Virus record (IMG/VR): IMGVR_UViG_3300022744_000001
Coordinates: 194,022-258,021 of that record
Direction: 5' to 3' (one strand)
DNA from: a virus
DNA: 64,000 bases
Part shown: piece after piece, positions 27,361 to 59,733 of the stretch
How positions within the stretch are numbered: the stretch's first letter is position 1
How the letters are laid out: the number at the start of each line of letters is the position of its first letter
Translations under genes and position numbers: made by a program
Notes under the pieces: model-generated
The model's database searches: none
Seen by the model: only the letters and a program-made list of their open reading frames with translations
Told to the model about the DNA's origin: nothing

Positions 27361-28128
27361 CTATCCGATGAGGTCGAACCTACTCAAGACTTTCGTATCA
27401 GAAGTTTCTTCCTTCGTGCCAAAGGCATGCTGGAGGAGCGGTTTGAAAGTGCGCTCCACGTAGTCATTCGAATCAGCACGAATCTTGGCGAAATGGCACA
27501 CGGGGCAACCTGCAAACATGGAATTGGCAGAGATGTGGTCGTGCTCCGTGTTGAAACTGATCTGCGGGCCATCCGAAGTGCGGGTAATGGCGATGAAATT
27601 GCGATTGTACATCCAGTAGTAATGCCTAGTGGCCGAACTTAGGGTCACTCCGAATCGTTGCACCAGCTCAAGGATCTTCGCGACGGAAGCGTTTGGGTTG
27701 GCCTCGAGCACGAGAATGAAAGCCATGATGACCAAAGAGCTGAGGTTGAGATTGCTCCCAAGGTTCAATGGGTTGCTATCCCCGCGGTCCTTGCACTCTT
27801 CGACGTGGCAGTAGCAAGCGGGGGAGCACCGGCACATGATGGGGTACTCGCCCTCGTGGACACAGTTCTTCTCGGCTCGGTTGTGTGCCCGTTGTCGTTC
27901 GAGGTAGCGGGTTAGATGTGTGACGGCGAGGCCCTCGAACCAGTTAGGCTTCAAGACTTCCTTCTCCAAGGCCGTCCTCGCCGCTCGGAGGTGGGACACA
28001 ACGGAGGGTGTCCCCTCGTGTTGGGTTTCCAACTCCCGAAGCGTAGCCAGGGTTCTCTGCAACAAGTCGTCGGATCTCGGCAAGTTCTCGGGCATGTTCG
28101 TCAAGCCTCTCCAGAATTTGCTGTACAC
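27361..28128 (-). CDS. Cys-rich protein ending VLSRFDLIG
   Basis: CRCSPACYCHVEECKD. Its C-terminus carries the SRFDL motif. The start overlaps DUF1003 and is uncertain. Confidence 0.45.
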   Translation of the reverse strand: MYSKFWRGLTNMPENLPRSDDLLQRTLATLRELETQHEGTPSVVSHLRAARTALEKEVLKPNWFEGLAVTHLTRYLERQRAHNRAEKNCVHEGEYPIMCRCSPACYCHVEECKDRGDSNPLNLGSNLNLSSLVIMAFILVLEANPNASVAKILELVQRFGVTLSSATRHYYWMYNRNFIAITRTSDGPQISFNTEHDHISANSMFAGCPVCHFAKIRADSNDYVERTFKPLLQHAFGTKEETSDTKVLSRFDLIG

Positions 28129-30132: not shown

Positions 30133-30173
30133 GACCATGGTCATCGTGACCATGGTTATCGGAACCATGGTCC
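30133..30173 (+). promoter_or_regulatory. three tandem 15-bp units each containing the palindrome (G)ACCATGGT(C); candidate operator array
   Basis: ACCATGGT occurs at 30134, 30149 and 30164 with exact 15-bp spacing, directly upstream of the NAD-operon regulator. Confidence 0.4.
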
Positions 30174-30943
30174 TCAACACCAGGGTAGTCATGTATCGTT
30201 ACAAATATCCGCGACCGTCGGTTGCTGTGGATCTCGTCACCTTTGGGTACGACGCGACCCAGGCAGAGATCAGTGTCCTACTCATCAAGCGCAAGCACGA
30301 TCCCTTCGAAGGGAAATGGGCCTTGCCTGGGGGGTTTGTCGAGGTTGGAACCGAGGACGATTTCTCGGGGTCAAAGCCTTCGAACTACGGGGAGTCGCTC
30401 GAGGACGCTGCGCGTCGTGAGCTGAAGGAGGAGACTGGGGCGGAGCCCGAGTACATCGAACAGCTCGGGACGTTCGGGGACCCCAATCGTGATCCTCGCG
30501 GGCGAGTCATCTCGGTCGCCTACCTCAGCCTCGTGCGCTCCAAGGACCTCACTGTCAAAGCCAGCTCGGATGCAGCCGAGGCGGTGTGGTGGCCTTTGAA
30601 GTCTGCCCTTCGCCAGAAGTTCGCCTTCGACCACAACACCATCCTGAATCAGGCCGTAACTCGACTTCACTCAAAGGTTCGGTACGCGCCAATCGGGTTC
30701 AACCTTCTCCCGCAGAAGTTCACCTTGCACGAGCTGCAAGAACTCTACGAGGCGCTTCTCTTGCGCCAGCTCGATAAGAGCAACTTCCGAAGGAAAGTGC
30801 TCTCCGTGGGGATTCTGGCCGAGGCCGGTCAACGCGTCCACGGGAAGCAAACCGTCCAACTCTACCGATTCGACAAGCGCGCCTACGACAAGGTCAGCGC
30901 TGCTGGCTTCAATTTCGAACCCAAGTTCGTGAAGGGGAAATGA
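30137..30943 (+). CDS. Nudix hydrolase domain + C-terminal winged-helix (NrtR-like ADP-ribose-responsive regulator)
   Basis: Nudix box GGFVEVGTEDDFSGSKPSNYGESLEDAARRELKEETG. C-terminal FTLHELQELYEALL...DKSNFRRKVL resembles the NrtR wHTH. The real start is probably the ATG at 30191. Confidence 0.6.
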   Translation: MVIVTMVIGTMVLNTRVVMYRYKYPRPSVAVDLVTFGYDATQAEISVLLIKRKHDPFEGKWALPGGFVEVGTEDDFSGSKPSNYGESLEDAARRELKEETGAEPEYIEQLGTFGDPNRDPRGRVISVAYLSLVRSKDLTVKASSDAAEAVWWPLKSALRQKFAFDHNTILNQAVTRLHSKVRYAPIGFNLLPQKFTLHELQELYEALLLRQLDKSNFRRKVLSVGILAEAGQRVHGKQTVQLYRFDKRAYDKVSAAGFNFEPKFVKGK

Positions 30944-32355
30944 TCATGCTTCGACCCAACCTCGCACTCAACACCGACTCCTACAAGCTCTCGCACCCGT
31001 GGCAATACCCTGACGGGCTCGAGTACATGCAGTCCTATTTCGAAAGCCGTGGTGGCCTCTTCGGAAAGACCATGAGCCTTGGCTACCAGGGGTTGGCCAA
31101 GACCAACCTGCTCGACCCGGTCACCAAGGACGACGTGGAGGAAGCCAAGGAGGTCGCGGAGGCCCATGGCGAACCTTTCGAGTACGGCGGCTGGATGCGC
31201 ATTGTGGACAAGTTCGAGGGCAAGCCCCCCATCCGCATCTTGGCCGTGCCCGAAGGTACTATGGTCCCGACGCACAACTTGCTGATGCGGGTGGAGTCCA
31301 TGGACAAGGAAACGGCGTGGCTCCCCGGGCACGTCGAGTCCATGTTGGTCCGCCTTTGGTACCCGCAGACGGTCGCGACTCTCTCGCACTACATCAAGCG
31401 GGACATTCTCGAGGCCCTGATCAAGTCGTCCAACGACCCCTGGGGGGAGATCCTCTTCAAGCTGCATGACTTCGGGGCTCGAGGGTGCAGCTCGCTCGAG
31501 ACGGCGGGTATCGGCGGTATGGCGCACCTGGTCAATTTCCAGGGCACCGACACCATCGAGGCTCTTCGCTACGTCCGGAAATACTACGGCGAGTCGATGG
31601 CGGGGTTCTCCATCCCCGCGGCGGAGCACTCGACCATCACGAGCTGGGGCCGGGAGAACGAACTCCTCGCCTACCGGAACATGGTCAAGCAGTTCGCGAA
31701 GCCCGGCAAGTTCGTGGCGTGTGTCTCGGACAGCTACGACATCTACAACGCGGTTCGTCTCTGGGGCAGTGAACTCCGCGAAGAGGTCAAGGCCAGCGGC
31801 GGCACCCTGGTCATTCGTCCTGACTCCGGCATCCCCGTCGAGGTGGTCATGAAGTGCCTCCGCATCCTGGAAGACCAGGTGGGCATGACCAAGAACATGA
31901 AGGGGTACAAGGTCCTCCCGTCCTACTTCCGCCTGATCCAGGGTGACGGGGTCAACCGCGACTCCATCCGCGAAATCCTCGCCGAGATGCTCGCGAACGG
32001 CTACTCGGCGAGCAACATCGCCTTCGGCATGGGTGGCGGCCTCCTGCAACAGGTCAACCGCGACACCCAGAAGTACGCCTACAAGTGCTCGCAGGTCATC
32101 ATCAACGGGCAGCCCCGTCGCGTCTTCAAAGACCCGGTCACGGACCAGGGCAAGAAGTCGAAGGCAGGCAACTTGGACATCGTGTTCGAGAACGGGCAGT
32201 TCAAGACCATCGAACTCGAGCCCGGCACCTCTCTCAGCCGCAACACGGCACTCAAGCCCATCTACGAAATGGGCAAACTCTTGGTAGATGAAAAGTTCTC
32301 CGACGTGCGGAAGCGTGCTGACAGCGACCTCGTCGAAGGCTACGGAAGGGCATGA
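30940..32355 (+). CDS. nadV: nicotinamide phosphoribosyltransferase (NadV/Nampt)
   Basis: LALNTDSYKLSHPWQYPDG...YFESRGG matches the NAMPT N-terminus. 471 aa, ATGA-coupled to its neighbours. Confidence 0.85.
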   Translation: MIMLRPNLALNTDSYKLSHPWQYPDGLEYMQSYFESRGGLFGKTMSLGYQGLAKTNLLDPVTKDDVEEAKEVAEAHGEPFEYGGWMRIVDKFEGKPPIRILAVPEGTMVPTHNLLMRVESMDKETAWLPGHVESMLVRLWYPQTVATLSHYIKRDILEALIKSSNDPWGEILFKLHDFGARGCSSLETAGIGGMAHLVNFQGTDTIEALRYVRKYYGESMAGFSIPAAEHSTITSWGRENELLAYRNMVKQFAKPGKFVACVSDSYDIYNAVRLWGSELREEVKASGGTLVIRPDSGIPVEVVMKCLRILEDQVGMTKNMKGYKVLPSYFRLIQGDGVNRDSIREILAEMLANGYSASNIAFGMGGGLLQQVNRDTQKYAYKCSQVIINGQPRRVFKDPVTDQGKKSKAGNLDIVFENGQFKTIELEPGTSLSRNTALKPIYEMGKLLVDEKFSDVRKRADSDLVEGYGRA

Positions 32356-36110: not shown

Positions 36111-36744
36111 GGCCGGTGGGAGGGGCACTCGAACCCGGGCCTTGGTCCTGGCCGGGAATGCGCCGAATGCCCATGATCATCATCCTCCCCGCTGCCTCGT
36201 GCTGGGAGTGGCTGTCCACCTGCAAAACGACATTGACCACGGTGCGACCCAGCCGCATCCAGGCTTGCTCGAGCGCCTTAACCCCCTCGTTGACGTCGTG
36301 GACCAATGAGTGCATCTCCTCGGAGATTTCGCAGTTCGAATCGTGCAGCAGCTCCACAAACAAGGACGCGATATCGATCAACAGGTCGTGTCGCTCCTCG
36401 GGGGAAGCCCCGCTGAACTTGCGCACGCTTTCGAGCAGGTCCGGGGACGTGAACAGGTCGTCCTTGTGGATGCGCCCACAAGCCCCGCATACCTCACTGG
36501 GAGGGGCCCCTTTACTCCGCCAGATGCTGGCCGCAGATGTCACCACCTCCGAAACGGTCTCCTCCCCACGACGGGAGACAACCACTGTGACGACGGGGGC
36601 CCAACCAGTTTTGGACTGCGCGAGCTTGATGTCCTTGATCGTGCCCTCAATCCGCAATCCGCCCGCATCTGTTTCTACTTCTGCCCCAATCGCGAGATCT
36701 TGTTCTGCCATGTTTTCTCCGTGACAATCGTACACCGGAATCAA
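36103..36744 (-). CDS. hypothetical protein
   Basis: 213 aa. Confidence 0.4.
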   Translation of the reverse strand: MIPVYDCHGENMAEQDLAIGAEVETDAGGLRIEGTIKDIKLAQSKTGWAPVVTVVVSRRGEETVSEVVTSAASIWRSKGAPPSEVCGACGRIHKDDLFTSPDLLESVRKFSGASPEERHDLLIDIASLFVELLHDSNCEISEEMHSLVHDVNEGVKALEQAWMRLGRTVVNVVLQVDSHSQHEAAGRMMIMGIRRIPGQDQGPGSSAPPTGLN

Positions 36745-37445
36745 CGGCGTCTCGTTTTCTTGCGCTTCGACGTTTCCGCTTCCCTTGCGGCCGTGACCAG
36801 ACGAGCTTGGTCTTGACGAGCTTGGTCTTGCTCTTCCGCCTCTTTGGCCGCGACGATGGCGGCCCGGTTCATGTGAGCGCGGTCCATCGCCTCGTCGCCC
36901 GTGATTCGCTCATAGGGGACCTTGTTGTCCCGAAGAGCCCGGACACGTTCGATCTCGTCCTCCGAATGAACCGTTCCGCCCGCGTTCAAGTCGATGTACC
37001 AGGAGTACACGTCGTTGATCGTCTTGAGTTCGTTCACGTGCCACCGGAAGCGGCACTGCATGATGTCGAACCCGTCCGTGTACTCCCGATGGTAGTGGCC
37101 GAACGCTTTGATCTCGTTGCTCAGGTAGCCAATGACTGCATCAATACGCTGCTTGCCGTCCACGAGCACGTACCAGCACTTTGGGTCGTTTTTGTCCACG
37201 AACCCCTGCCACGTGGGGCAGTTCGTGTAGATGTCCTTGCCCGACTTGCCGCCGCTCAGGATGTACTCGACGAACCGAGTTTTCTGCGCCTCTGTCCAGA
37301 CGTTCCCTCGCTGGAAGTTGGGGTTGACGTCCAGGCCGTAGTCCATCACCTGGCTGTAGTAGTATTTCGCAAGGTAGTTCCACCCCACGTCAACGGCGTA
37401 CAGCCCGGCACTGGGGGTCATCTGGGGGATATCACGATAGCGCAT
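36741..37445 (-). CDS. DUF262 (ParB-like nuclease domain, DGQQR motif) protein
   Basis: NFQRGNVWTEAQKTRFVEYIL...LVDGKQRIDAV. A 15-bp tandem repeat (QDQAR x2) sits in the C-terminal coding region. Confidence 0.6.
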   Translation of the reverse strand: MRYRDIPQMTPSAGLYAVDVGWNYLAKYYYSQVMDYGLDVNPNFQRGNVWTEAQKTRFVEYILSGGKSGKDIYTNCPTWQGFVDKNDPKCWYVLVDGKQRIDAVIGYLSNEIKAFGHYHREYTDGFDIMQCRFRWHVNELKTINDVYSWYIDLNAGGTVHSEDEIERVRALRDNKVPYERITGDEAMDRAHMNRAAIVAAKEAEEQDQARQDQARLVTAAREAETSKRKKTRRR

Positions 37446-37484
37446 GGGTTCTCCTGAGAGAGTAACGCGCCTGCTCTCGAGAAC

Positions 37485-37985
37485 CTATACCGCTTTGAAG
37501 CTCTGCGCCTTCTTTTGAAGGGCTTCGGCCACAATCGGGTGGACATAATAGCTCACGTCCGCGCCCCAGCTCGCCAGCTCTTTGACGTTCGTGGAACTCA
37601 CGAACGACTGTTCCGGTTGGGTCATCAGGAAGATCGTGTCGATGCTCGGGCAAAGCTGGCGGTTCACATGCGCGATCCCCATCTCAGCCTCAAAGTCGGC
37701 GATGGCGCGCAGCCCACGAATGATGGTTTTGGCCCCTACCTGCTTGCAGAAGTCCACAAGAAGGCCGCGGAAAGGCATCACCGTGACCTTGGGGATTTTC
37801 TCGGCCACAAAAACCTGGGTGATGAGTCGAACGCGCTCCTCTTCGTCGAAGAACGGCTTTTTCTTGGAATTCATCAGAACCCCGATCACCAACTCGTCCG
37901 CGATCTCAAGACCTCGCGTAGCGATGTTGAAGTGTCCGTTGGTGAACGGGTCGAAACTGCCTGCGTAAGCCGCGATCTTCGTCAT
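37485..37985 (-). CDS. coaD: phosphopantetheine adenylyltransferase (CoaD/PPAT)
   Basis: AYAGSFDPFTNGHFNI, IRGLRAIADFEAEMGIAHVNR and IFLMTQPEQSFVSSTNVKE align closely with E. coli CoaD along its whole length. Confidence 0.85.
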   Translation of the reverse strand: MTKIAAYAGSFDPFTNGHFNIATRGLEIADELVIGVLMNSKKKPFFDEEERVRLITQVFVAEKIPKVTVMPFRGLLVDFCKQVGAKTIIRGLRAIADFEAEMGIAHVNRQLCPSIDTIFLMTQPEQSFVSSTNVKELASWGADVSYYVHPIVAEALQKKAQSFKAV

Positions 37986-39504: not shown

Positions 39505-40062
39505 ATGAGCTTCATTGGCATCAAAGTGCCTCACGAGGTCGGTCGTTTGCTTCACACCATAGAGGTACCGGGCGAAAAGGTACCTCTCCACGAGTTCCAC
39601 GTGACCCTCCTCTACCTGGGCAAAGAAGTGCCCATTGAAACCTTGGGCAAGGCCATCGTGGCCGCGGCCGAAGTCGCGGAGTCGTACCGCCCCTTCCGTT
39701 GCACGCTCACGCAAACCAGCTCTTTCCCCAAAGGCGATGACGGGGTACCCATCATCTGTCCTGTGGACAGCCCCGAACTCCACGAACTCAATACGCAGCT
39801 CAAAGCAGCTTTTGACGCGGCGGGAGTGGACTACTCGAAAAAGTTCCCCGACTACAAACCGCACGTGACGTTGGCCTACTCCGACGAGGTCACAGCGGAC
39901 ACGCTGTTCGGACCACTCGAGTGGTCCGCCTACGAGATGGTGCTCTGGGGCGGGGACGCGGGGGATGAGCGTCTTGCCACCAACTTCCCATTTGCCTTGC
40001 CCACGACGGTAGCCACGAACCAGCAGCTCGTACGCCTCGCCATGGCGATGAAGAAGAGCTAG
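39505..40062 (+). CDS. 2H phosphoesterase superfamily protein (LigT-like)
   Basis: Two H-x-T-x motifs are present: FHVTLLYLG and PHVTLAYS. 185 aa. Confidence 0.65.
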   Translation: MSFIGIKVPHEVGRLLHTIEVPGEKVPLHEFHVTLLYLGKEVPIETLGKAIVAAAEVAESYRPFRCTLTQTSSFPKGDDGVPIICPVDSPELHELNTQLKAAFDAAGVDYSKKFPDYKPHVTLAYSDEVTADTLFGPLEWSAYEMVLWGGDAGDERLATNFPFALPTTVATNQQLVRLAMAMKKS

Positions 40063-40526
40063 CTGGCTTCCGCTTCAGGCTCAGCCGTGGGCGGGACAAA
40101 CGGGCCCACAATCGCCTCGCACTCCGCTGCGAACTTGGCCGCCTTTTCGGCATCTGCGATCCTGTATGTCGCCGGGTATTCGACCACCATGTCGAGGATG
40201 CCCTCGGAGGCCAGGTACTCTTTGCTGAAGATGCGGATGGACGACGCTGCGTACTGGGTAGCTTCCGCCAGCTCCTTCACGGTCATCGGAGCCGAAGACT
40301 GCTCAAGCACCCGAATCACCCCAAGTGACACTGTGTAAAAAGCCTTGTGGTCTTTCGGGTTGTAGGACTTCTCCACCGTCGCTTCTTGCCCTTTATCCTG
40401 GGTGTGCGAGCTTGTGTCGAAGGAGGGCTGAAACTCGGCCGGGCTTTCAGAACCCCGAAAAATACGGGCGGAAAGGCCGGTCAAGGTTTTGCCAATGGCG
40501 TTTCTGACGAGGTTTCTGAACGACAT
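40059..40526 (-). CDS. hypothetical protein (possible winged helix)
   Basis: 155 aa. Confidence 0.4.
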   Translation of the reverse strand: MSFRNLVRNAIGKTLTGLSARIFRGSESPAEFQPSFDTSSHTQDKGQEATVEKSYNPKDHKAFYTVSLGVIRVLEQSSAPMTVKELAEATQYAASSIRIFSKEYLASEGILDMVVEYPATYRIADAEKAAKFAAECEAIVGPFVPPTAEPEAEAS

Positions 40527-40891
40527 AGTATTGACTTATACACCAGATTTAACGATTCCCTTTCAGTCGAGGAGGATGGTCTTGAGTATCCTCAGACGGC
40601 TTTGCCAGGCAGCTCGAACAATCTCCCCTAACGCTTATGTGAAATTCACGGCAAAAACAGGAACCAACGGCGAAGAACTTTGGAGTGGAACCATTGGGGT
40701 TGGCGACGCAATCATCACCGAACACACAGGGAGCCTTGAGGAAGTCATCGACCAGCTTTCTTACAAGCTCACGAGGCTATCGACCGCGGTCATTGACCGA
40801 CTGTCTCGGGTAACCCCCGTACCCGGAGCCTTAAAAAACAACGGCCAGGATCAGCAAGATCCTGGCCGTGAAGGGGAGCCTTGACTCGAGG

Positions 40892-42322
40892 TCAATCCTC
40901 GTCGTCTTCGTCCTCATCTTCGTCGTCGTCTTCATCCTCGTCTTCGTCGTCGTCCTCTTCGTCGTCCGAGTTATCCTCGTCGTCGTAGTCGTTGCCTTCG
41001 TCCTCGTCGCCCTCTTCGTCGGCGTCCTCGTCGCCTTCGGCTTCCTCTTCCTTGTCCTCCTCGATTTCGTTGTACTTGAAGAAATCGTAGACCTGGGAAA
41101 GGGTCATGGGCTGATTGAACTCGGCTTCGTCGCCCTCGGAGAGGCGGGCGTAAACTTCCTGCGCCCTCTCCACGCTCAGCGGTCCGATGTAAACCTGCTT
41201 CGACAAACGACCCGTGCGAAGCAGCGCGTCGTCGATCTCCTGCATCTTGGCGTTTGTGGTGCAGATGATACGAAGGTTCAAGGCGCTACCCAAGATACCA
41301 TCGCTTGCATTGAGTAGGGCGGAGATGGCTGCCAGGTTGGCCTCATCGTTGTCCACCACTGGGCCCACCGTTTTGAGAAGTGCGTTTTGCGCATCGATGA
41401 GGATGGTCGCCACTTCAGGGGTCAACATTTGCTTGGCAAGAAGGCCGCCGATGAGGTCGAACAGCTTCTGGAACTCCTTGACCAACGAGGATTCCTTTTT
41501 GCGAGGAACCAGCGCTCGGTCGGCATCCTCGATGAGAAGCACGATGGGCTTTTCGACCCCAATCATGCTGCGAGCACGGATGAGGGTAGGTACGAGGTTC
41601 GGACCGGCCAAGTGCTCGACCATGCCCGCCGGGATCAGAACGAACACGGCGTCGTAGACCTCGTGCAAGAGGCCCCGGATGAAGAACGTTTTGCCGGTGC
41701 CCGGTTCGCCCTGAATGATGACCAAACGGCCGATGGGGGTGGCGCGTTGCAGGTCGTCCACGATGAAGTCGAAAGCATCGACCACATCGGCTTCGTAGTT
41801 GTCACGCTCGATGGGAACGCCCGCAAGGCCCACTTCACCGATCTCGATGCCGTTGGCCCCCTGGGCAAGGGAGTAGATGGGCTGGCGAACGAACTCGGGC
41901 AACAGATGGTCCCCGAGACGCTTGTTGACGTCCTCGAACGTCTTCCGGTTCGTGGAGACCACGCGGATGTCGTATTTGTTATCCAGACCGGTGTGGATTT
42001 TGACGGCGCCCTCTGGCCAGAAAAGCCAGGTTTCACTCGTGCCACGCCCGAAGATGGGCACATCTGCGAACGGAGAGCGGGCTCCCGTGATAGATGCGAT
42101 GGCCTCGAAGAGCTTCTCCTGCCCCTGCTCGTCGGACTCCTCGATCAGCACTCCACGGCACCCACCCGAGAACACGGTGAGGTTGTTTGCGACAGCATGG
42201 TCAACGAGCATCGTCGCCGCAGGCCCATACTCCTCCAGCACCAGTTTCCCTGGAGCCCACCAATCCAACTTGGGAGGCTCTTTCGGCGGCTCGCGTCGGC
42301 TCTTGTCGTTCTTGGTTGCCAT
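40892..42322 (-). CDS. classic AAA-family ATPase with poly-acidic C-terminal tail
   Basis: Walker A IIQGEPGTGKTF, Walker B VLLIEDAD, sensor-1 CTTN and SRH ALLRTGRL are all present. About 70 C-terminal residues are almost entirely D/E. Start taken at MATKNDK (42322). Confidence 0.7.
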   Translation of the reverse strand: MATKNDKSRREPPKEPPKLDWWAPGKLVLEEYGPAATMLVDHAVANNLTVFSGGCRGVLIEESDEQGQEKLFEAIASITGARSPFADVPIFGRGTSETWLFWPEGAVKIHTGLDNKYDIRVVSTNRKTFEDVNKRLGDHLLPEFVRQPIYSLAQGANGIEIGEVGLAGVPIERDNYEADVVDAFDFIVDDLQRATPIGRLVIIQGEPGTGKTFFIRGLLHEVYDAVFVLIPAGMVEHLAGPNLVPTLIRARSMIGVEKPIVLLIEDADRALVPRKKESSLVKEFQKLFDLIGGLLAKQMLTPEVATILIDAQNALLKTVGPVVDNDEANLAAISALLNASDGILGSALNLRIICTTNAKMQEIDDALLRTGRLSKQVYIGPLSVERAQEVYARLSEGDEAEFNQPMTLSQVYDFFKYNEIEEDKEEEAEGDEDADEEGDEDEGNDYDDEDNSDDEEDDDEDEDEDDDEDEDEDDED

Positions 42323-42504
42323 GATTTTCTCTTCTTTTCGTCTCCGGAGGCGTCGAGCCTCCCGCCTTCCCGTACACCAATCACATGCTGAACTTGGGCT
42401 TTTGCCCGCATTCGCCTCAAAAAAGCCACGAAACGGCAGCGGAGCCGGTAGGTTTGCGCTGGGAAATCCCCGAGCTGAGCTAAACCGCCCTTGGCTAAGT
42501 TGAG

Positions 42505-42735
42505 CTATTTGCTGGGTTTCGGTTCTGAATTTGGGAAAATGGAAGCAATGAGGCAGCCCAAGTGATAGGGCACTTCCCGGTCTTCCTCTTTGGTGGCCGC
42601 CGCGAAGGGCAGAACTACGCCCCGGTCTCCATGGCGTATCGGTTCTTGGCACGCAAAACAGGGTTTTGACGGGGTGGACACTTGCTGCCCGGTTTCACAC
42701 ACCCCTGCCTTCCACGGCGGCCCGAACCACTTCAT
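42505..42735 (-). CDS. possible small Cys/His protein in long divergent intergenic region
   Basis: 76 aa ORF (CFACQ...HLGC). Weak support. Confidence 0.2.
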   Translation of the reverse strand: MKWFGPPWKAGVCETGQQVSTPSKPCFACQEPIRHGDRGVVLPFAAATKEEDREVPYHLGCLIASIFPNSEPKPSK

Positions 42736-42788
42736 TCAGTCCCCTTCGTCTAGTTTTCGCTACTTACACCGCTGTTGCTGGTGTAGTC

Positions 42789-43211
42789 ATGCCGCGAGGG
42801 AAATACATGACAGATGTGAACAAAGCAGCGAGTGATACCCTGAAAGCAGCAAAGACTTTGGCCATGAAGCATTTCGAGGGGGCCACTTTCGAAGGGAATG
42901 AGGCTCGCCCGGTGATCGTAGGGATTGCCATACTCCTGGCCCTGCTCTCCAGGGGCGAGAAGCGCCGCAAGAAGAAAACCACGGACCTGCAAAGCCCCAA
43001 ACCCCCCGCCCCGGCGCCCAAGCGTCTGGACCCGGTCGAGGAGGCTCGGAAGAACCCTCGAACCCCAAGGCTGCCCCTCTCGGCCATCGGCACGGGGAGG
43101 CCCGCCCCGGCGGCTTCTCAGCCTGCCAAACCGAAGCCCAAGAAGTCGCCCCCCAAGGCGGCGGTTCAACCCAGGTCGGCTCGCCCCCGCAAGCGCGCTA
43201 CTTCCCGTTGA
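42789..43211 (+). CDS. membrane protein with basic P/K-rich tail
   Basis: ATG at 42789. The TM helix IVGIAILLALL is followed by KRRKKK. Confidence 0.4.
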   Translation: MPRGKYMTDVNKAASDTLKAAKTLAMKHFEGATFEGNEARPVIVGIAILLALLSRGEKRRKKKTTDLQSPKPPAPAPKRLDPVEEARKNPRTPRLPLSAIGTGRPAPAASQPAKPKPKKSPPKAAVQPRSARPRKRATSR

Positions 43212-43488
43212 TCGCAACGAACCACGCACCCTGAATCTTCTCGGTGAGGTCTTCCCATCTGGGCATGGGGAGACCCGCGTAGTTCTTCCAGCCGACGTAG
43301 TTCCCGTAGCGCTTGTACGCGGCGATCGTCTGCTCGGTTTTCATCTGCTGGATCACGTCGGGGTCCACCGTGATGCCTTGTTTGGACATCACCTGAAGGA
43401 CCCCCTCCGCTTGGACCACCATCTCCAGGTGTCGCCGAGTTTCGGCAGGCAGCTGCTTGATGCCCTCGAGTATCTCTTCATCAGTCAC
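43198..43488 (-). CDS. hypothetical protein
   Basis: 96 aa. Confidence 0.4.
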   Translation of the reverse strand: MTDEEILEGIKQLPAETRRHLEMVVQAEGVLQVMSKQGITVDPDVIQQMKTEQTIAAYKRYGNYVGWKNYAGLPMPRWEDLTEKIQGAWFVAINGK

Positions 43489-43774
43489 GTTCTATCTCCT
43501 CTGGCTCTGAAACCACCACTTCGCAGTCGAGGAAGAACGTTGACCCCTTCTGGGCAGGGTTCCAACCCATGCGTTGCCCTTCCTGGATCAAGTCAATCAC
43601 CGACCGCCTGGACACGAAAAAACCCCGGGGGAGTCGAGCCTGAAGGCTTCGTCCCACCGGGGGTAGGTTTGATTGCACCGTGACCAGTTGCTCAAGCTCC
43701 CCGTCGTCGTCCTTGGCTTTCACCGTTTTGACCGAGTAGCGAAACTGGTTCTTCCCCACCGCAACCAATGACAT
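43481..43774 (-). CDS. hypothetical protein
   Basis: 97 aa. Confidence 0.4.
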   Translation of the reverse strand: MSLVAVGKNQFRYSVKTVKAKDDDGELEQLVTVQSNLPPVGRSLQARLPRGFFVSRRSVIDLIQEGQRMGWNPAQKGSTFFLDCEVVVSEPEEIERD

Positions 43775-43804
43775 CTTAGTCCCCCTTGCTCAGAGGGATT
43801 ACAC

Positions 43805-46042
43805 CTACTCAGCGGCTTCGGCGAAGTTCCCCGGACCAACAAGACCAACCAAGTGCTGACGCGCGACCCGGTACGTGTTCTTCGCGGTCTGGATCTCGGC
43901 CCGAATGGCCGCGCTCTCGAGGTTGCGATCAATGGTGTTGATGAGGTCGTCGGGGGTGATTTCAATGCCGTTCTCCCGCAACATGCGCTCGAGCTTGGCC
44001 TGACGCTCGAGCGAGAACTTGGAGCGGTCAAACTTCGTCCCCTCCTCCTGCAAGAACTTCACGACCTCTTGAGCCTTCTCTGGCCTGCGGTTCACGAAGT
44101 TGCGCATGTTCTTGCGCCAGAGGTCGTCGGCCATCTTGCGCACGGTGTCGCCCACGGCCCCCTCGAGTTTGGTTGAAGCATCGGTCCATGCCACGTCCGA
44201 GAAATTCGGGGACAGGGGCAAGTACGACAAGGAGCGGCGGAGCAGCTTCACACGGTCCACATGAGCCAGCTCGCCCACCAGAAGGACCTTGGCGAAGCGG
44301 CGGATGATGGGCATGGACATGCGCTCGGGATGGTTCGTCGCGCCCCACACGGAGATACCCGAGTAGGAGAGCACGCCGTCCATGAGAATCTGGAACTCGG
44401 TTGTGAGGTTCGTACCCCCGAACGCTTCGTGTCCCTGATTGCCGTTGAGCACCGTGTCGATCTCGTCGATGGAGATGAACGCTTGGCGCTCGGTCTCCTT
44501 GTGGAGCTGCAAGGCAGCCTCGAACAGGCGCTTGGGGTTCTTCTCGGCCTCACCCTTCCAGCAGGTGAGGAAGTCGGAGCCCTGGGCGAAGATGGTGAGC
44601 GCATTCCTCTCGCTGCTGATGGCTCGGAGAGCCTCGGTCTTGCCACACCCCATGGGGCCGACCAAGAGCACGTTGCTCTTGTCGGTCTTGCCGCTCGGGC
44701 TCGTGGCCCGGAAAAGGTCGGCGTACATGGACGAGTCCTTCGCCTGCTCGACCATCTCCCGAACTTCGTCGAAGCCCGACCCCACCAGGTCCCCGAGCGA
44801 GACCTTGGGCTTGAGGCCCGGGATGACCTCGAGCGCTCCAGGGGCCTCCCCCAGGAAGGAGTTGCCCGCCCCCACCTTGCACACGTAGAACGAGTTCTCG
44901 TCCCGGTGGATCTTGTACCACTGGGCCTTGCGTGCGAGCACGAACTTCACGATTTCCTGCCCGCTCTTCTCAGTGAGGAGTAGGCCCGAGATGGTCGAAA
45001 TCGTCTCGTTGCGGAAGTCGATCTCCATCTGCTCTTCGGGACTCTTGAGGCCAACCTTGTCCCTCTCCCGAACGTTGCGGGGGTCAAGCTCGCTGACCGA
45101 ACGGAGAGCCTCTTTGAACTCCGACTCATTCATGAGGCGGCGCGGGGGCTTGCCTCCAGTCACGCGGCGGATCTTCTCGGCCGCCGTGTGAATCTTGGCC
45201 TCGATTTTCTCCGCCCCTTCCCACATGGAGGTGAGGTTTTCGGAAAGGAAGTCGATGATTTCCCCGGGCTCCTTCACGAACCCGCCGAAGAGGCCACCAC
45301 AGAGGGCGTCGGCCAGGATCGTGGCCTTGCGCTGGGTGTAAACGCTGATCTCGTCCGGCTTCTTGCCGTCCTGGATTTCACCATGCGCGTCCGCGTTCTC
45401 GTAGATGGAGATGGCCAGGTCCGTACGAACGGGGTCACCGTGAATTTTGATGCCTTCCACGCTGTGCCGGTGTCGAAGCATCTTGTGGTACATCTCGAGG
45501 TGGAAAACCACGCCTCGAGCAATAGACACCACCAGGTTTTGCAGGACAGCGGCGTTCTCAACCCCTTCCACGAAGCGCTGCAAAGGCTCCTGGTTCATCT
45601 GCACCAGAAGCACGAACGCTTGCAGCTCCTCTCGGGTCGTCGGGGGTTTGACGTCGCCGAAGAGCATGAGGTTCATGGGTTGAATCGCATGCACCGTGTC
45701 GCGGAGCGCGTGAAATCCGTTCTGAATTGCCCGGGAGATGCTGAGGATGAGCGCCACGAAGTTGCCTGCGCCCATCGTGTGCTTGAACTGCTGAAACCAG
45801 TCCTCTTGCTGGTTCATGTCGAAGGGGTTCTTCGTTCTGAGCGAGTTCTTGGCCTCTGCGACCATCGCGCTGTAGGTGTCCCCGATCTCCTCGACGCGCT
45901 CATCGAATTCTTCGCACAACTTGTCGAGGAAAGCCCCGGTTTCACGAAGGCCGTCGTAGTCGAAGTCCAACACCAGGCCCACGAGATCCGTGAACTGGGC
46001 CGGAGTGATAGATACTTTGGAAACCATTTTGTCGATGTACAT
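43805..46042 (-). CDS. large classic AAA-family ATPase with about 480 aa unique N-terminal region
   Basis: Walker A VLLVGPMGCGKTE, Walker B FISIDEIDTV and sensor-1 GATNHPERM are present. Start uncertain: the track's extreme end (46075) would be TTG; the first in-frame ATG is at 46042, with another at 46027. Confidence 0.65.
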   Translation of the reverse strand: MYIDKMVSKVSITPAQFTDLVGLVLDFDYDGLRETGAFLDKLCEEFDERVEEIGDTYSAMVAEAKNSLRTKNPFDMNQQEDWFQQFKHTMGAGNFVALILSISRAIQNGFHALRDTVHAIQPMNLMLFGDVKPPTTREELQAFVLLVQMNQEPLQRFVEGVENAAVLQNLVVSIARGVVFHLEMYHKMLRHRHSVEGIKIHGDPVRTDLAISIYENADAHGEIQDGKKPDEISVYTQRKATILADALCGGLFGGFVKEPGEIIDFLSENLTSMWEGAEKIEAKIHTAAEKIRRVTGGKPPRRLMNESEFKEALRSVSELDPRNVRERDKVGLKSPEEQMEIDFRNETISTISGLLLTEKSGQEIVKFVLARKAQWYKIHRDENSFYVCKVGAGNSFLGEAPGALEVIPGLKPKVSLGDLVGSGFDEVREMVEQAKDSSMYADLFRATSPSGKTDKSNVLLVGPMGCGKTEALRAISSERNALTIFAQGSDFLTCWKGEAEKNPKRLFEAALQLHKETERQAFISIDEIDTVLNGNQGHEAFGGTNLTTEFQILMDGVLSYSGISVWGATNHPERMSMPIIRRFAKVLLVGELAHVDRVKLLRRSLSYLPLSPNFSDVAWTDASTKLEGAVGDTVRKMADDLWRKNMRNFVNRRPEKAQEVVKFLQEEGTKFDRSKFSLERQAKLERMLRENGIEITPDDLINTIDRNLESAAIRAEIQTAKNTYRVARQHLVGLVGPGNFAEAAE

Positions 46043-46074
46043 GGCCAACCAGTACACCGGCAGGTGTAAAGGCA

Positions 46075-47295
46075 ATGCACATGGACCAGTTTGTTCGGCG
46101 AAAATTAACCGAGCTGAAACCCCACCCTAAGAACGACGCATTCTTCCATGACCTGCGCCTATCCCCTAAATACCCGCTTGTACGGGAACAGGTTTGCAGT
46201 GGCGAGATCCAAAACCCGCTCACTGTCCTGTCGGACGGCACGGTTGTATCGGGCCACCTTCACTATCTAGCCGCTCTTGAGCTTGAGGTAGAGGAAGCTC
46301 CCATTCAGCTTTACGAGGGGAACTGGAACGAGGTGCACGAGCTGGAGTTCTTGCTCCAAGCGAACGCCCAACTCGGGTACCTGGGGTTCGAACAGATAGC
46401 GATCGCGTACTCTCTCCTTTTGGGAGGGGCGATTGAGAAGCCCAAGGACGCCAGCAAAGGCGGGCGGCCGAAGAAGGGGGCTGCCCCATCTCCGGAACGG
46501 CGACAAAGCACCAAAGAGCGGGTAGCGCGGCTCCTGGGGGTTTCTGCGAAAACCGCAGAGCACTTGCACCTGATCTACCTGACGCCCGGGGTCCCTGCGG
46601 ACATTCACGACGCTGTTGAAAACCGAATGGTCCCCATCGCCCTCGCGGCGGATGCGGTGCAGTTCAGCATCCATGAGGCCCTTCGACGCAACCCTCACAC
46701 GAAATTCGTCGTGGTGGACCCGATTGACGTGCGTACGTACATCGAGACGCCCCCAAACAAACGACGCACGAAAATGGTGGACCTGCTCAAGGGCAAGCGT
46801 CCCCGCCCCCTCCCTCCCGTCATGCTCGAGGGGAAAGAAGTTGCTGACTACCACAAGCGGGTCTTTTCTTCGGTCCCGCCCCCCTTCCATCCAAAGCAGA
46901 GCGTGCAGAGCATGATTCGAGACGGGGTCCACTGGGATGATCTCGAGGTGCCAGACAACGACATCCCGCTTCACGAGGCCATTGGGCGCATTCGGGCTCG
47001 ACTCAGCAAGGCTTTCGAGGCCCCCGTCCTGGTACACGAGGACAAGGTCGAGGAGGCCCTAAACTCGCTCCTTTTGGAAGTTGCGCGGCTCATGAAGTCG
47101 CACCACGGCAAGGAAGTCTCGGTCCGCATCGGGAGCGCTCCAGTAGCCCCCAAACCGCGCCCCAAAGCCACCGTGAAACCCAAGGCAGAGTCAAAGCCCC
47201 CTTCGAAGCCCCCGGCCCCCACCGTCTTCGCTACCGAGGTCGAGTTCATCGTCTCCTTGCTCGGGCTGGAGACCGTCCAGGCACTAGGGCGCTAG
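46075..47295 (+). CDS. ParB N-terminal-domain-like protein
   Basis: LKPHPKNDAFFHDL...LTVLSDGTVVSGHLHYLAA resembles the ParB/Srx fold with its GxxR-type motif. Confidence 0.5.
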   Translation: MHMDQFVRRKLTELKPHPKNDAFFHDLRLSPKYPLVREQVCSGEIQNPLTVLSDGTVVSGHLHYLAALELEVEEAPIQLYEGNWNEVHELEFLLQANAQLGYLGFEQIAIAYSLLLGGAIEKPKDASKGGRPKKGAAPSPERRQSTKERVARLLGVSAKTAEHLHLIYLTPGVPADIHDAVENRMVPIALAADAVQFSIHEALRRNPHTKFVVVDPIDVRTYIETPPNKRRTKMVDLLKGKRPRPLPPVMLEGKEVADYHKRVFSSVPPPFHPKQSVQSMIRDGVHWDDLEVPDNDIPLHEAIGRIRARLSKAFEAPVLVHEDKVEEALNSLLLEVARLMKSHHGKEVSVRIGSAPVAPKPRPKATVKPKAESKPPSKPPAPTVFATEVEFIVSLLGLETVQALGR

Positions 47296-58452: not shown

Positions 58453-59733
58453 TCACCCAAAGCTGGCTTGTTTCGTCTTCCGCGGGGTGAGGACCGCAGC
58501 ACCTTTCCCCATCACTACGTCCTCGGTGATGAGCACAGAGCCCACCGTTTCATCCCCAGGGATATCGAAGGACACGTCTCGAATCGTATCCTCGAGAATA
58601 GAGCGCAAGGCTCGAGCACCCGTGGGCCGCTGTTTGGCCAACCGAGCGATTGCCCTCAGTGCATCATCAGTGAACTGCAAATCCACCGTGTCGATCGAGA
58701 AGAGGGCCTTCGCCTGCTTCAAAATGCTGTGCTTGGGCTCGACCAAGACCCGAACGATATCCTCTTCGCTAAGCTCGGTCGTCGTGGTGAGAACGGGCAA
58801 ACGACCCGCAAGTTCAGGAATCAACCCGAACTCAATGATGTCGTCCTCACACGCGGATAGGTACGAGTGGGACAGGTCAAACCGCTCCTTGGTCGAAGCC
58901 CCAAACCCAATCCCCGCCCCCTTGTTGAGGCGTCGTTCAATGAGGGGCTCAATACCGGCAAAGCTCCCAGCACAGATGAACAGGATGTTGGCCGTATCGA
59001 CCATGTCCGTGACCGACGCCTGGGAGGCACTGCGACCCTGTCTCGGCACCGGCACCTTGGTGCCCTCGAACAACTTGAGCAGCGCTTGCTGTACCCCTTC
59101 ACCGGAGACGTCCCGGAACCCAGCCGATGTCTTCCCGCTCTTCCTGGCAATCTTGTCGATCTCGTCGATGTAGATGATGCCCCACTCGGCCTTCTGAACG
59201 TCGCCGTTGGCCTCCTGGACAAGCCCTTGAAGGAGGGTTTCGACGTCGTCCCCGACGTAACCAGCTTGCGTGAGACGGGTCGCGTCCCCGATGAACAACG
59301 GCACCTTGAGCATGCGAGCAATGCTGCGCGCCAGATGGGTTTTGCCAGTGCCCGTCGGCCCGAGAAGCAGGATATTCGACTTCTCGATCTCAACGTCCTC
59401 ATAGCGGCCGTTCATCTTCGTCATCCACTTGCCGTTGGCTCGACGGCGTTTGTAGTGGTTGTGGATGGCGATGGCGAGATCACGCTTGGCTTTGTCTTGG
59501 CCCACCACGTAATCGTCCAGGTAGGCTTTGATCTGTCGGGGCGTCCGAAGGGTCTCCTCCTCGGTTTTACCCTCGATGGTGCGCTTGTTCGACGCGAACA
59601 CCTCCATGGAGGTTTCGACGCAGCGCTTGCAGATGGCCACTGGATCGTTGGAATCTTCCTCGATTTTCGAGGTGATCAGGGACGTGACTTCGTTTCGAGG
59701 GCGGCCACAAAACCAGCACTTAGTGGGGTCCAT
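58453..59733 (-). CDS. clpX: ClpX ATP-dependent protease ATPase subunit
   Basis: N-terminal C4 zinc-binding domain CWFCG...CKRC. Walker [19 protein letters not shown]. ClpX-like over its whole length. Confidence 0.85.

What the first reader, a model, noticed from the sequence alone, without database searches (positions are those of the whole stretch)
40892..46075. Two classic AAA (Cdc48/FtsH-type) ATPases with novel N-domains, one ending in a roughly 70-residue poly-D/E tail
Both carry complete Walker A/B, sensor-1 and SRH arginine motifs of the classic AAA clade, which is uncommon in phages compared with AAA+ clamp-loaders or terminases. The D/E tail (40892..41100) resembles substrate- or adaptor-docking tails. 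A divergent intergenic region of about 470 bp at 42323..42788 may hold shared regulation.
Basis: partly seen in the sequence, partly recalled or inferred. Interest (0 to 1): 0.5.

Follow-up and report, generated by a model that had tools for sequence, protein, structure and literature searches.

The report
Two AAA protein-remodelling ATPases, huge phage
Two genes in a roughly 450-kb phage genome encode ATP-driven ring motors of the protein-unfolding kind: one belongs to a widespread phage family in which a protease-docking tail has been replaced here by a 60-residue acidic tail, and the other is a Vps4-like motor with a unique helical front end found only in one group of huge phages. Both are real, but their targets are unknown.

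Summary
Both genes are real, intact classic-clade AAA ATPases on the minus strand: AAA-1 at 40892..42322 (476 aa) and AAA-2 at 43805..46042 (745 aa).

**AAA-1**
- It belongs to a widespread phage AAA family, with at least 79 IMG/VR loci.
- Family hallmarks are an [LIV]EDAD Walker B (E-D order, as in Bcs1) and an xLAGP pore loop (as in Cdc48 D1).
- Other branches of the family end in ClpX-like [ILM]GF or HbYX-like GxY[ILV] tails. 11 of those 30 members have a ClpP-like peptidase gene within 6 kb.
- The window's branch has lost that motif. It carries a conserved poly-D/E tail instead (60 aa, 47 D/E) and has no ClpP-like neighbour.

**AAA-2**
- Its ATPase module is closest to Vps4/CdvC: adjacent RR arginine fingers and a W-K-G pore loop.
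- It is fused to a 380-aa all-helical N-domain seen in only 88 clusters out of 1.84 billion proteins.
- It occurs on 360-510 kb phage contigs, often with inteins in the P-loop.

- The two genes are not a conserved pair.
- The "470-bp intergenic region" holds a conserved 76-aa gene.
- Classic AAA ATPases are not rare in large phages.

Function is inferred: two independent substrate-threading remodellers. Both are new variants of a known kind, and interest is moderate.

The parts
40892..42322 (-). AAA-1 gene, 476 aa: N-domain, classic AAA module and acidic tail
41753..42322 (-). AAA-1 N-terminal alpha/beta domain, residues 1-190. Conserved motifs: WW, FGRG, VRQPxYSLA, EVGxAG, NY.
   Evidence: No Pfam family in any of 49 members, including BCS1_N. 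Confidently folded. Residues about 90-190 are also matched in distant IMG/VR relatives.
41687..41710 (-). AAA-1 Walker A, GEPGTGKT
   Evidence: Translation. G205, P207, G208, G210 and K211 are invariant. A homologue, P0019, carries an intein after GEPGTGK.
41600..41617 (-). AAA-1 pore-loop-1 position, EHLAGP (no aromatic residue)
   Evidence: L238, G240 and P241 are nearly invariant. It aligns with the Cdc48A D1 pore loop SKLAGE in the profile alignment.
41519..41545 (-). AAA-1 Walker B, IVLLIEDAD (E-D order)
   Evidence: E265, D266 and D268 are invariant. [LIV]EDAD is found in most of 71 family members. It aligns with mouse Bcs1 LLEDVD.
41348..41509 (-). Helical-hairpin insertion of about 54 aa at the pore-loop-2 position. 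Present only in the window protein and its two closest relatives.
   Evidence: Alignment A1. Helices 277-296 and 302-324 in the model.
41207..41260 (-). AAA-1 sensor-1 (TTN) and second region of homology with arginines R369 and R372 (LLRTGR)
   Evidence: Translation. T355, T356, N357, R369 and R372 are invariant.
40895..41074 (-). AAA-1 poly-D/E C-terminal tail, residues 417-476
   Evidence: 47 of 60 residues are D/E, net charge -46. pLDDT about 50. Present with variable length in the huge-phage branch only (12 of 69 classified family members). It replaces the [ILM]GF or GxY[ILV] ends of other branches.
40841..40869 (-). Intrinsic-terminator-like hairpin (12-bp stem followed by a T run), 23 bases after the AAA-1 stop codon
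43805..46042 (-). AAA-2 gene, 745 aa: helical N-domain, Vps4-like AAA module and helical C-terminal extension
44897..46042 (-). AAA-2 N-terminal all-helical domain, residues 1-382. It includes the near-invariant block HRHSVEGIKIHGDPxxTDxAxSIYENxDAHGEIxDGKKPDExSxY.
   Evidence: alignment; model. Found in only 88 clusters at 50% identity out of 1.84 billion proteins, always N-terminal in proteins of about 730-770 aa or about 1100 aa with inteins. No Pfam match. No match beyond the AAA module in BFVD.
44168..44896 (-). AAA-2 beta linker plus AAA module, residues 383-625
44636..44659 (-). AAA-2 Walker A, GPMGCGKT. Homologues carry inteins between G465 and C466.
   Evidence: Translation. Two intein types, about 350 aa and about 278 aa, sit at exactly this site in at least 11 homologues.
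44549..44566 (-). AAA-2 pore loop 1, TCWKGE
   Evidence: T493, C494, W495, G497 and E498 are invariant. It aligns with the Cdc48 D2 pore loop TMWFGE.
44456..44479 (-). AAA-2 Walker B, FISIDEID
   Evidence: D526, E527 and D529 are invariant.
44294..44338 (-). AAA-2 sensor-1 (TN) and adjacent arginine fingers R581 and R582 (IIRRF)
   Evidence: T569, N570, R581, R582 and F583 are invariant. There is no PGR spacer, as in Vps4/katanin-type AAA proteins.
43808..44167 (-). AAA-2 C-terminal helical extension, residues 626-745
   Evidence: helices 631-732. Conserved in the family.
42505..42735 (-). It is not part of either ATPase.
   Evidence: tblastn of the 78-aa gene of L011: 51% identity, E 1e-16. 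Called as a gene in L002.

Best explanation
The window comes from a huge phage. Its contig is 448 kb, and relatives are IMG/VR viral contigs of 360-510 kb. It encodes two separate classic-clade AAA ATPases. Each most likely forms a ring that grips a protein substrate in its central pore and uses ATP hydrolysis to pull on it, so as to unfold, extract or disassemble it. They are not a conserved two-gene system.

**AAA-1**
- It is a derived branch of a widespread phage AAA family. The family is defined by a roughly 190-aa alpha/beta N-domain, an [LIV]EDAD Walker B and an xLAGP pore loop.
- Other branches of the family end in a ClpX-like [ILM]GF motif or an HbYX-like GxY[ILV] motif and often sit next to a ClpP-like peptidase gene. 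The family's ancestral job was therefore probably to feed a ClpP-like (often head-maturation) peptidase.
- In the window's branch the docking motif is gone. A disordered poly-D/E tail takes its place and no ClpP-like gene is nearby. This branch most likely works without that peptidase, and the tail probably serves as an electrostatic docking or regulatory element for a basic partner.

**AAA-2**
- It is a single-ring, Vps4/CdvC-like motor with adjacent RR arginine fingers and a W-K-G pore loop.
- Its large, highly conserved helical N-domain presumably selects the substrate or adaptor.
- It is a core gene of one huge-phage clade.

**Shown versus inferred**
- Shown: gene structure, motifs, family membership, distribution, C-terminal motif classes and their link to ClpP-like neighbours, and lack of conserved pairing.
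- Inferred: ring formation, threading mechanism, loss of peptidase coupling, role of the tail and role of the N-domains.
For: - **Classic AAA identity:** Pfam PF00004 for both. PDB sequence and profile hits to Cdc48/p97, Afg2, Vps4 and proteasomal ATPases.
- **Catalytic residues:** all are invariant across 49 and 53 homologues.
- **Inteins:** they sit in the P-loops of homologues of both families, which argues that the ATP site is under strong selection.
- **Phage origin:** relatives lie on IMG/VR contigs. Only 2 of 185,579 species genomes, both MAGs, hold AAA-2. The window also carries a phage-type dNMP kinase, an endolysin-like peptidase, an Acb1-like gene, NAD salvage genes and ClpX.
- **AAA-1 C-terminal classes and neighbours:** a ClpP-like gene (PF00574) lies within 6 kb in 11 of 30 members ending in [ILM]GF or GxY[ILV]. 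It lies near 0 of 27 members with other ends and 0 of 12 with polyacidic ends (Fisher p = 3e-5, uncorrected for relatedness).
- **Motif resemblance:** Mx1's end ...AGIGFGS resembles the IGF loop GAGIGFGAS of the window's own ClpX.
- **Intermediates:** some members carry [ILM]GF plus a short acidic extension.
- **Not a pair:**
Against: - There is no experimental or oligomer-level evidence. Hexamer or heptamer state and substrate engagement are not modelled.
- AAA-1's pore loop lacks the canonical aromatic residue. Cdc48 D1 and Bcs1 also lack it.
- The ClpP link is guilt by association in distant branches (24-36% identity). It is present in only 11 of 30 motif-bearing members within the 6 kb examined, and the loci are phylogenetically non-independent.
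- The window covers only 64 kb of a 448-kb genome, so a ClpP-like gene may exist elsewhere.
- No conserved neighbour points to any substrate for AAA-2.
- The two genes do lie within 10 kb of each other in 6 of 22 AAA-2 loci, so some functional link cannot be excluded.
Confidence: 0.6

Rival explanations
1. The two ATPases form one system. The Vps4/katanin-like AAA-2 recognises the glutamate/aspartate-rich tail of AAA-1, as spastin and katanin recognise acidic tubulin tails. Alternatively, the two are co-regulated from the region between them.
For: They are 1.5-2.2 kb apart on the same strand in the window and its closest relatives. They lie within 10 kb in 6 of 22 AAA-2 loci. Both families occur on the same huge-phage contigs. 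The polyacidic tail is restricted to the branch of AAA-1 found in that clade.
Against: - The distance varies: 5.5 kb, about 20-30 kb, or about 200 kb counting a 30%-identical AAA-1-like copy. In several relatives they are not within 10 kb.
- Four other genes lie between them in the window, one on the other strand.
- No interaction was modelled.
- No shared promoter was found.
Confidence: 0.1
2. AAA-1 is a phage orthologue of BCS1. It would form a heptameric translocase that moves folded proteins, used for membrane-proximal head assembly, as proposed for jumbo phages by Iyer et al. 2021 (PMC7824862).
For: - The Walker B has the E-D order (IEDAD), as in mouse Bcs1 (LLEDVD), and the pore loop 1 is short and non-aromatic.
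- The paper reports BCS1 orthologues in all three jumbo-phage groups.
- One distant relative lies beside the terminase and portal genes.
Against: - No BCS1_N domain was found in any of 49 members, and there is no N-terminal membrane anchor in the sequence.
- The family profile scores Cdc48 D1 (45.4 bits) as well as Bcs1 (44.3 bits).
- Bcs1 is not among the best 60 PDB profile hits.
- I could not verify that the paper's phage 'BCS1' proteins are this family.
Confidence: 0.15
3. AAA-1 of this clade is still the unfoldase of an ATP-dependent protease. It would dock to a phage or host peptidase by another surface, with the acidic tail acting as a gate or adaptor.
For: Other branches of the family carry IGF-like or HbYX-like tails and have ClpP-like neighbours. 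Intermediates combine [ILM]GF with an acidic extension. Only 64 kb of the 448-kb genome was examined.
Against: None of the 12 polyacidic members carries an [ILM]GF or GxY[ILV] end. No ClpP-like ORF lies within 6 kb in any of the 12 polyacidic loci or in the window. The phage has its own ClpX with an intact IGF loop for that role.
Confidence: 0.15
4. AAA-2 is a true Vps4/CdvC equivalent that disassembles ESCRT-III-type polymers. The target would be host PspA/Vipp1 or a phage-encoded homologue.
For: The best structural and profile matches are Vps4 and CdvC. The arginine fingers are the adjacent RR type and the pore loop has the tryptophan.
Against: - No MIT domain.
- No beta-domain insertion is visible in the model.
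- The CdvC model scores 90 bits against a 650-bit cut-off.
- No ESCRT-III-like gene was seen in the neighbourhoods examined.
Confidence: 0.1
5. One or both ATPases are counter-defence factors. For example, a Trip13-like remodeller could strip HORMA proteins from CBASS, or a decoy could target IetA-type defence ATPases.
For: - An Acb1-like 2H phosphoesterase gene is conserved 1-4 kb from AAA-1 in 11 loci.
- There are weak PADLOC hits to TRIP13 for AAA-1 and to IetA for AAA-2.
Against: The PADLOC hits are weak and cover only generic P-loop or AAA segments (E 1e-3 for TRIP13, 1e-10 for IetA). The Acb1 proximity is part of general synteny in a closely related group. The Walker B and N-domain differ from Trip13.
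Confidence: 0.07

Closest known systems
Vps4 / archaeal CdvC (meiotic clade of classic AAA: Vps4, katanin, spastin, Msp1)
   Different: A 380-aa helical N-domain replaces the roughly 80-aa MIT domain. No beta-domain insertion is visible. There is a roughly 120-aa helical C-terminal extension. Pore-loop position 2 is Lys. No ESCRT-III partner is seen. The score is far below the family cut-off.
Cdc48/p97 D1 domain and mitochondrial Bcs1
   Same: For AAA-1: the classic-clade fold. The RxGR arginine arrangement (R369, R372). A pore loop xLAG, as in Cdc48 D1 (KLAG). A Walker B with E-D order and a short non-aromatic pore loop, as in Bcs1 (LLEDVD).
   Different: A single cassette. The N-domain matches neither the Cdc48 N domain nor BCS1_N by sequence. 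There is no membrane anchor. The polyacidic tail is unique to this branch, and so is the helical insertion at pore loop 2.
ClpX (IGF loop) and proteasomal ATPases PAN/Rpt/Mpa (C-terminal HbYX / GQYL)
   Same: Other branches of the AAA-1 family end in [ILM]GF(G) or GxY[ILV] and often sit beside a ClpP-like peptidase gene. This parallels the peptidase-docking motifs of these unfoldases (established knowledge). The window's own ClpX shows GAGIGFGAS.
   Different: In ClpX the IGF motif is an internal loop and the ATPase is of the HCLR clade, not classic AAA. The window's AAA-1 has neither motif. Docking was not tested.
Uncharacterised phage AAA ATPases: PHROG 7485, 14322, 9172 and 33861; Myxococcus phage Mx1 'AAA ATPase' WNM70161; Xanthomonas jumbo phages Xoo-sp13 (QDJ96549) and XacN1
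   Same: Same family as AAA-1 across the N-domain (partly) and the ATPase (31% identity over 67% of the length to Mx1). They share the EDAD Walker B.
   Different: They lack the poly-D/E tail and the pore-loop-2 insertion, and they end in ...IGFGS or ...FGFT.
IetA / IteA anti-phage AAA ATPase
   Same: A classic AAA module that aligns with AAA-2 (PADLOC E 1e-10; NCBIfam 34 bits).
   Different: The match is much weaker than to CdvC. There is no IetS protease partner. AAA-2 is phage-encoded and its N-domain is unrelated.

Membership tests
Classic AAA clade (PF00004) | Walker A, Walker B, sensor-1 and a second region of homology with arginine fingers, in a single alpha/beta plus helical-lid module | tested here: met
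Vps4 / CdvC | ATPase module closest to Vps4, with adjacent RR arginine fingers | tested here: met
Vps4 / CdvC | N-terminal MIT domain that binds ESCRT-III MIM motifs | tested here: not met
   No MIT or any other Pfam hit in residues 1-400. The N-domain is a 380-aa helical domain unique to this family.
Vps4 / CdvC | Score above the curated equivalog cut-off (NF041006, 650 bits) | tested here: not met
   90 bits.
Vps4 / CdvC | Beta-domain insertion in the small subdomain, and an ESCRT-III partner encoded or present | tested here: inconclusive
   The model shows no three-stranded insertion after sensor-1. No ESCRT-III-like gene was seen in 22 neighbourhoods. Whole genomes were not examined.
BCS1 | BCS1_N (PF08740) domain and an N-terminal membrane anchor | tested here: not met
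   AAA-1. No BCS1_N hit at E <= 1 in any of 49 members. The N-terminus is hydrophilic in the sequence.
BCS1 | Walker B with E-D order and a short non-aromatic pore loop 1 | tested here: met
   IEDAD against LLEDVD, and EHLAGP against a Bcs1 segment without the aromatic-hydrophobic-Gly motif.
BCS1 | Specific sequence affinity to BCS1 over other classic AAA proteins | tested here: not met
   The family HMM scores Bcs1 at 44.3 bits and Cdc48A D1 at 45.4 bits. Bcs1 is absent from the best 60 PDB profile hits.
BCS1 | Heptameric ring | not testable with these tools
   No multimer prediction was available.
Peptidase-coupled unfoldase (ClpX-like IGF or HbYX-type docking) | A docking tripeptide ([ILM]GF or hydrophobic-Tyr-X at the C-terminus) and a compartmental peptidase partner | tested here: not met
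   The window's AAA-1 ends in poly-D/E with no such motif. No ClpP-like ORF is in the window. The feature is met in other branches of the family: 30 members carry the motif and 11 of them have a ClpP-like neighbour.
Phage AAA family PHROG 7485 / Mx1-type | Sequence match across the ATPase and part of the N-domain, with the EDAD Walker B | tested here: met
   PHROG 7485 E 1e-18. Mx1: 31% identity over residues 99-417. EDAD is found across the family.

The most novel reading that the evidence does not exclude
The AAA-1 family may be a so far undescribed class of classic-AAA unfoldases that phages pair with their ClpP-like (head-maturation) peptidases through C-terminal IGF-like or HbYX-like tails. 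In one clade of huge phages this tail was exchanged for a long acidic tail carrying an embedded aromatic residue. That exchange would retarget the motor to a new basic partner. AAA-2 may be a Vps4-like polymer-disassembly enzyme that this clade cannot do without, possibly acting on acidic tails such as that of AAA-1.
Probability: 0.25. Interest if true: 0.65.

Novelty: new variant of a known kind. Interest (0 to 1): 0.45.

Why it matters
**Proteostasis in huge phages.** Huge phages carry many genes for protein quality control; here and in relatives these include ClpX, Cpn10, DnaJ-like proteins and these two AAA motors. Nobody knows what those genes do during infection.

**AAA-1.** The family offers a natural experiment in how an unfoldase is coupled to a peptidase and how it is uncoupled: IGF-like or HbYX-like tails in some branches, an acidic tail in another. 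That is directly testable in vitro.

**AAA-2.** It is one of the best conserved proteins of its phage clade (42-70% identity over its full length), and inteins target its P-loop. It is therefore a good marker gene and a likely essential function with an unknown substrate.

**Limit.** None of this overturns what is known about AAA mechanism.

Tried and rejected
- **DNA similarity to deposited phages:** no match for 40000..47000.
- **AAA-2 against deposited phages (tblastn):** only generic FtsH-type matches covering about 24% of the query.
- **The 'intergenic' region 42200..42900:**
  - No Rfam family and no tRNA, despite a D-arm-like string.
  - No sigma-70-type promoter anywhere in 40500..46500.
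  - One weak terminator-like hairpin at 42425..42440.
- **BCS1_N in the AAA-1 family:** none found.
- **PADLOC:** only weak, generic hits.
- **NCBIfam for the small neighbouring genes:** nothing.
- **Conserved gene neighbours of AAA-2 across 22 loci:** none beyond the closest relatives.
- **Terminase and portal near AAA-1 family genes:** found in only one locus, L085. I therefore rejected the reading 'portal-associated ATPase' as a general description.
- **The 260-267 aa gene directly upstream of AAA-1 in close relatives:** no counterpart in the window.
- **AlphaFold database fold search:** not available.
- **BFVD:** only the AAA module of AAA-2 matched.
- **Literature searches:**
  - Jumbo-phage BCS1 found only Iyer et al. 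2021.
  - Phage Vps4 found no paper.
  - Acidic tails on phage AAA ATPases and phage IGF/ClpP partners turned up no paper on these proteins.
- **Identity of the six SRFDLM-bearing proteins:** no Pfam or PHROG hit.

Full report
**What is there**

The interval holds two long minus-strand ORFs.
- AAA-1 is 40892..42322 (476 aa). Its translation is identical to a metagenomic protein, P0001.
- AAA-2 is 43805..46042 (745 aa, identical to P0057). Its reading frame stays open up to a TTG at 46075, but gene callers and all homologues start at the ATG at 46042.
- Both proteins come from a 448,224-bp contig.

Between the two genes lie three more:
- two small same-strand genes, 43481..43774 and 43198..43488;
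- a 140-aa gene on the other strand, 42789..43211.

That ORF is 51% identical to a 78-aa gene at the same position in a relative (E 1e-16), so the region is not empty.

A strong terminator-like hairpin follows AAA-1 at 40841..40869. No promoter consensus, Rfam family or tRNA was found between the genes.

**Is it a phage?**

No deposited phage is similar at the DNA level. The evidence for a phage comes from the gene content and from relatives.
- The window encodes a T4-type dNMP kinase, Dam methylase, thymidylate synthase, an M15 endolysin-like protein, NAD-salvage enzymes, an Acb1-like 2H phosphoesterase and ClpX.
- Relatives of both ATPases lie on IMG/VR viral contigs. For AAA-2 these are mostly 360-407 kb.
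- Only 2 of 185,579 species-representative genomes hold an AAA-2 relative, and both are MAGs.

I take the source to be a huge phage. No structural gene lies in the window itself.

**Both are classic-clade AAA ATPases**

Both pass the Pfam AAA threshold. Both match Cdc48/p97, Afg2, Vps4, Bcs1 and proteasomal ATPases among solved structures. All catalytic residues are invariant in alignments of 49 and 53 homologues, and I verified them in window coordinates. The AlphaFold models are confident, with mean pLDDT 84 and 82.

**AAA-1 in detail**

Domain layout:
- Residues 1-190 form an alpha/beta domain with no Pfam match in any member.
- The ATPase follows. Its Walker B, IVLLIEDAD, has the acidic pair in E-D order.
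- Its pore-loop-1 segment is EHLAGP, with no aromatic residue.

The E-D order is a hallmark of most of 71 family members, and mouse Bcs1 shares it (LLEDVD). The LAG pore loop aligns with the KLAG loop of Cdc48 D1.

A helical hairpin of about 54 aa is inserted at the pore-loop-2 position, only in the window protein and its two closest relatives.

**The tail, and what it replaces**

Residues 417-476 contain 47 D/E out of 60 (net charge -46) and are predicted to be disordered. The trait is conserved with variable length in about 40 homologues at 36-65% identity. It is absent from distant ones such as Myxococcus phage Mx1 and Xanthomonas phage Xoo-sp13.

I classified the C-termini of 69 full-length family members from IMG/VR and other loci:

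| C-terminal class | Members | ClpP-like ORF (PF00574) within 6 kb |
|---|---|---|
| [ILM]GF at or near the end (for example KKIGF*, MGFGG*, AGIGFGS*) | 23 | 7 |
| GxY[ILV] at the end (GQYI*, GAYV*) | 7 | 4 |
| Polyacidic | 12 | 0 |
| Other | 27 | 0 |

- Taken together, 11 of 30 motif-bearing members have a ClpP-like neighbour, against 0 of 39 others. Fisher p = 3e-5, not corrected for relatedness.
- The first motif copies the IGF loop by which ClpX docks on ClpP. The window's own ClpX has GAGIGFGAS.
- The second motif resembles the HbYX and GQYL tails of proteasomal ATPases. This comparison rests on established knowledge and was not tested here.
- Intermediates carry [ILM]GF followed by a short acidic run.
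- In one locus the gene order is AAA, a 120-aa gene, ClpP-like, a 240-aa ORF on the opposite strand, large terminase, T4-type portal. In seven other loci a tail sheath gene lies 5-9 kb away.

My reading is that the family began as a partner of a phage ClpP-like, probably head-maturation, peptidase, and that the window's branch has lost the docking motif and gained an acidic tail. No ClpP-like ORF is in the window.

In nine close relatives, a 260-400 aa protein ending in a zinc ribbon lies directly upstream of AAA-1 on the same strand. It is missing from the window.

**AAA-2 in detail**

Domain layout:
- Residues 14-382 are all helical.
- A short beta unit follows at 385-408.
- Then comes the ATPase, followed by a helical extension to residue 732.

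The ATPase is closest to Vps4/CdvC:
- The best single-domain PDB sequence hit is M. sedula Vps4 at 111 bits.
- The best NCBIfam model is CdvC, at 90 bits against 55 for CDC48.
- The arginine fingers are adjacent (IIRRF), as in the Vps4/katanin group. Pore loop 1 is TCWKGE, with an invariant tryptophan.

Against true Vps4 membership: there is no MIT domain, no visible beta-domain, and a score far below the CdvC cut-off. AAA-2 works like a Vps4-type motor but is not a Vps4 orthologue.

Distribution:
- The N-domain occurs in only 88 clusters at 50% identity among 1.84 billion proteins. It is always at the N-terminus of proteins with this same architecture.
- BFVD viral models match only the ATPase (TM-score normalised by query length at most 0.30).
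- The family is unusually well conserved (mean column identity 54%).

**Inteins**

At least eleven AAA-2 homologues carry one of two intein types exactly between G465 and C466 of the P-loop. One AAA-1 homologue carries an intein after GEPGTGK. Inteins home to indispensable sites, so this argues that ATP binding matters in both proteins.

**Are the two a system?**

- They are about 2 kb apart only in the window and its closest relatives.
- Elsewhere they are 5.5 kb, about 20-30 kb, or about 200 kb apart counting a 30%-identical AAA-1-like copy, or not within 10 kb.
- AAA-1 family genes lie within 10 kb of AAA-2 in 6 of 22 loci.
- No other neighbour of AAA-2 is conserved beyond the closest group.

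I conclude that they are independent genes of one genomic region, not an operon. A functional link, for example a Vps4/katanin-like motor gripping an acidic tail, remains possible but unsupported.

**Verdict**

- AAA-1 is a new branch of a common but uncharacterised phage AAA family.
- AAA-2 is a new, clade-restricted family built on a Vps4-like motor.
- The mechanism, substrate threading by ring ATPases, is inferred from conserved motifs and folds. Substrates and partners are unknown.

Noticed in passing
window 10746..11219 (-), 15781..16284 (+), 27113..27349 (-), 27361..28128 (-), 63043..63651 (-), 63632..63988 (-): Six unrelated ORFs end in the same peptide, [SN]RFD[LR][MLI], usually after a Pro-rich linker and followed by a few acidic residues and the stop codon (for example ...KSRFDLMDEDPLV*...RSRFDLMFDDDLF*). 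All five SRFD strings in the six-frame translation lie within 13 residues of a stop codon. Similar ends occur in relatives (NRFDLVNAFDDL*, TRFDRINALLDEEDLI*). None of the carriers has a Pfam or PHROG hit. The motif resembles the C-terminal sliding-clamp-binding tails of T4 gp43 (...ASLDFLFG*) and gp55 (...PSLDFLYEAND*) and the bacterial QL[SD]LF clamp motif. It is more likely a hub-binding (clamp) tail than an AAA docking peptide..
   Followed up: partly
window 58453..59733 (-): The phage encodes its own ClpX, with an N-terminal C4 zinc finger and an intact IGF loop (GAGIGFGAS). No ClpP-like gene was found in the window, so it presumably uses a host ClpP or a phage ClpP encoded elsewhere..
   Followed up: partly
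window 39505..40062 (+); also L005, L006, L007, L013 and IMG/VR loci: An Acb1-like / 2H phosphoesterase gene (Pfam 2_5_RNA_ligase2, Acb1) stays 1-4 kb from AAA-1 in 11 related loci. This may be plain synteny or a link to counter-defence..
   Followed up: partly
homologues P0069, P0102, P0106, P0107, P0110, P0112, P0145, P0148, P0154, P0155, P0170 (AAA-2 family) and P0019 (AAA-1 family): Inteins are inserted in the Walker A P-loop of both families. Two intein types (about 350 aa with a LAGLIDADG endonuclease, and about 278 aa) share the same site, GPMG|CGKT. The window copies are intein-free..
   Followed up: yes
L005, L006, L011, L013, L033-L037, immediately upstream of the AAA-1 homologue; absent from the window: A 260-400 aa protein ending in a zinc ribbon (CPxC...C..NH.W) sits about 30-46 bp upstream of AAA-1 on the same strand in nine close relatives. 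It is a possible partner or adaptor. No counterpart exists in the 64-kb window..
   Followed up: partly
window 42505..42735 (-): A conserved 76-aa protein with CxxC and further Cys/His residues lies inside what looked like intergenic DNA. A weak terminator-like hairpin follows at 42425..42440..
   Followed up: partly
window 42461..42490 (-): The string GGGCGGTTTAGCTCAGCTCGGGGATTTCCC looks like the 5' part of a tRNA (acceptor stem plus D-arm). ARAGORN and Rfam find nothing there. It may be a tRNA remnant..
   Followed up: yes
window 46075..47295 (+): A 406-aa protein with a ParB-like N-terminus (LKPHPKN...) is transcribed divergently from AAA-2, with only 32 bp between the two start codons. The arrangement is kept in the closest relatives..
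   Followed up: no
window 30137..32355 (+), 36741..37985 (-), 24794..26020 (+): An NAD-related gene set: NUDIX/NrtR-like regulator, NAMPT, an NMNAT-like cytidylyltransferase, a GmrSD_N protein, and a nucleoside deoxyribosyltransferase-NUDIX fusion..
   Followed up: no
L008 13639..13932, L009 4782..5075 and 1933..2649; L043-group loci; window 6327..7316 (+): Relatives encode Cpn10 (GroES), DnaJ and, in one group, EF-Ts near the AAA genes. The window has a weak DnaJ-like hit (E 1.4e-4, below the cut-off). Together with ClpX, this suggests a phage-encoded proteostasis set..
   Followed up: no
window 40868..41317 (+): The 149-aa ORF rich in V, F and L on the opposite strand is the antisense reading of the poly-D/E tail codons, not a gene..
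   Followed up: yes
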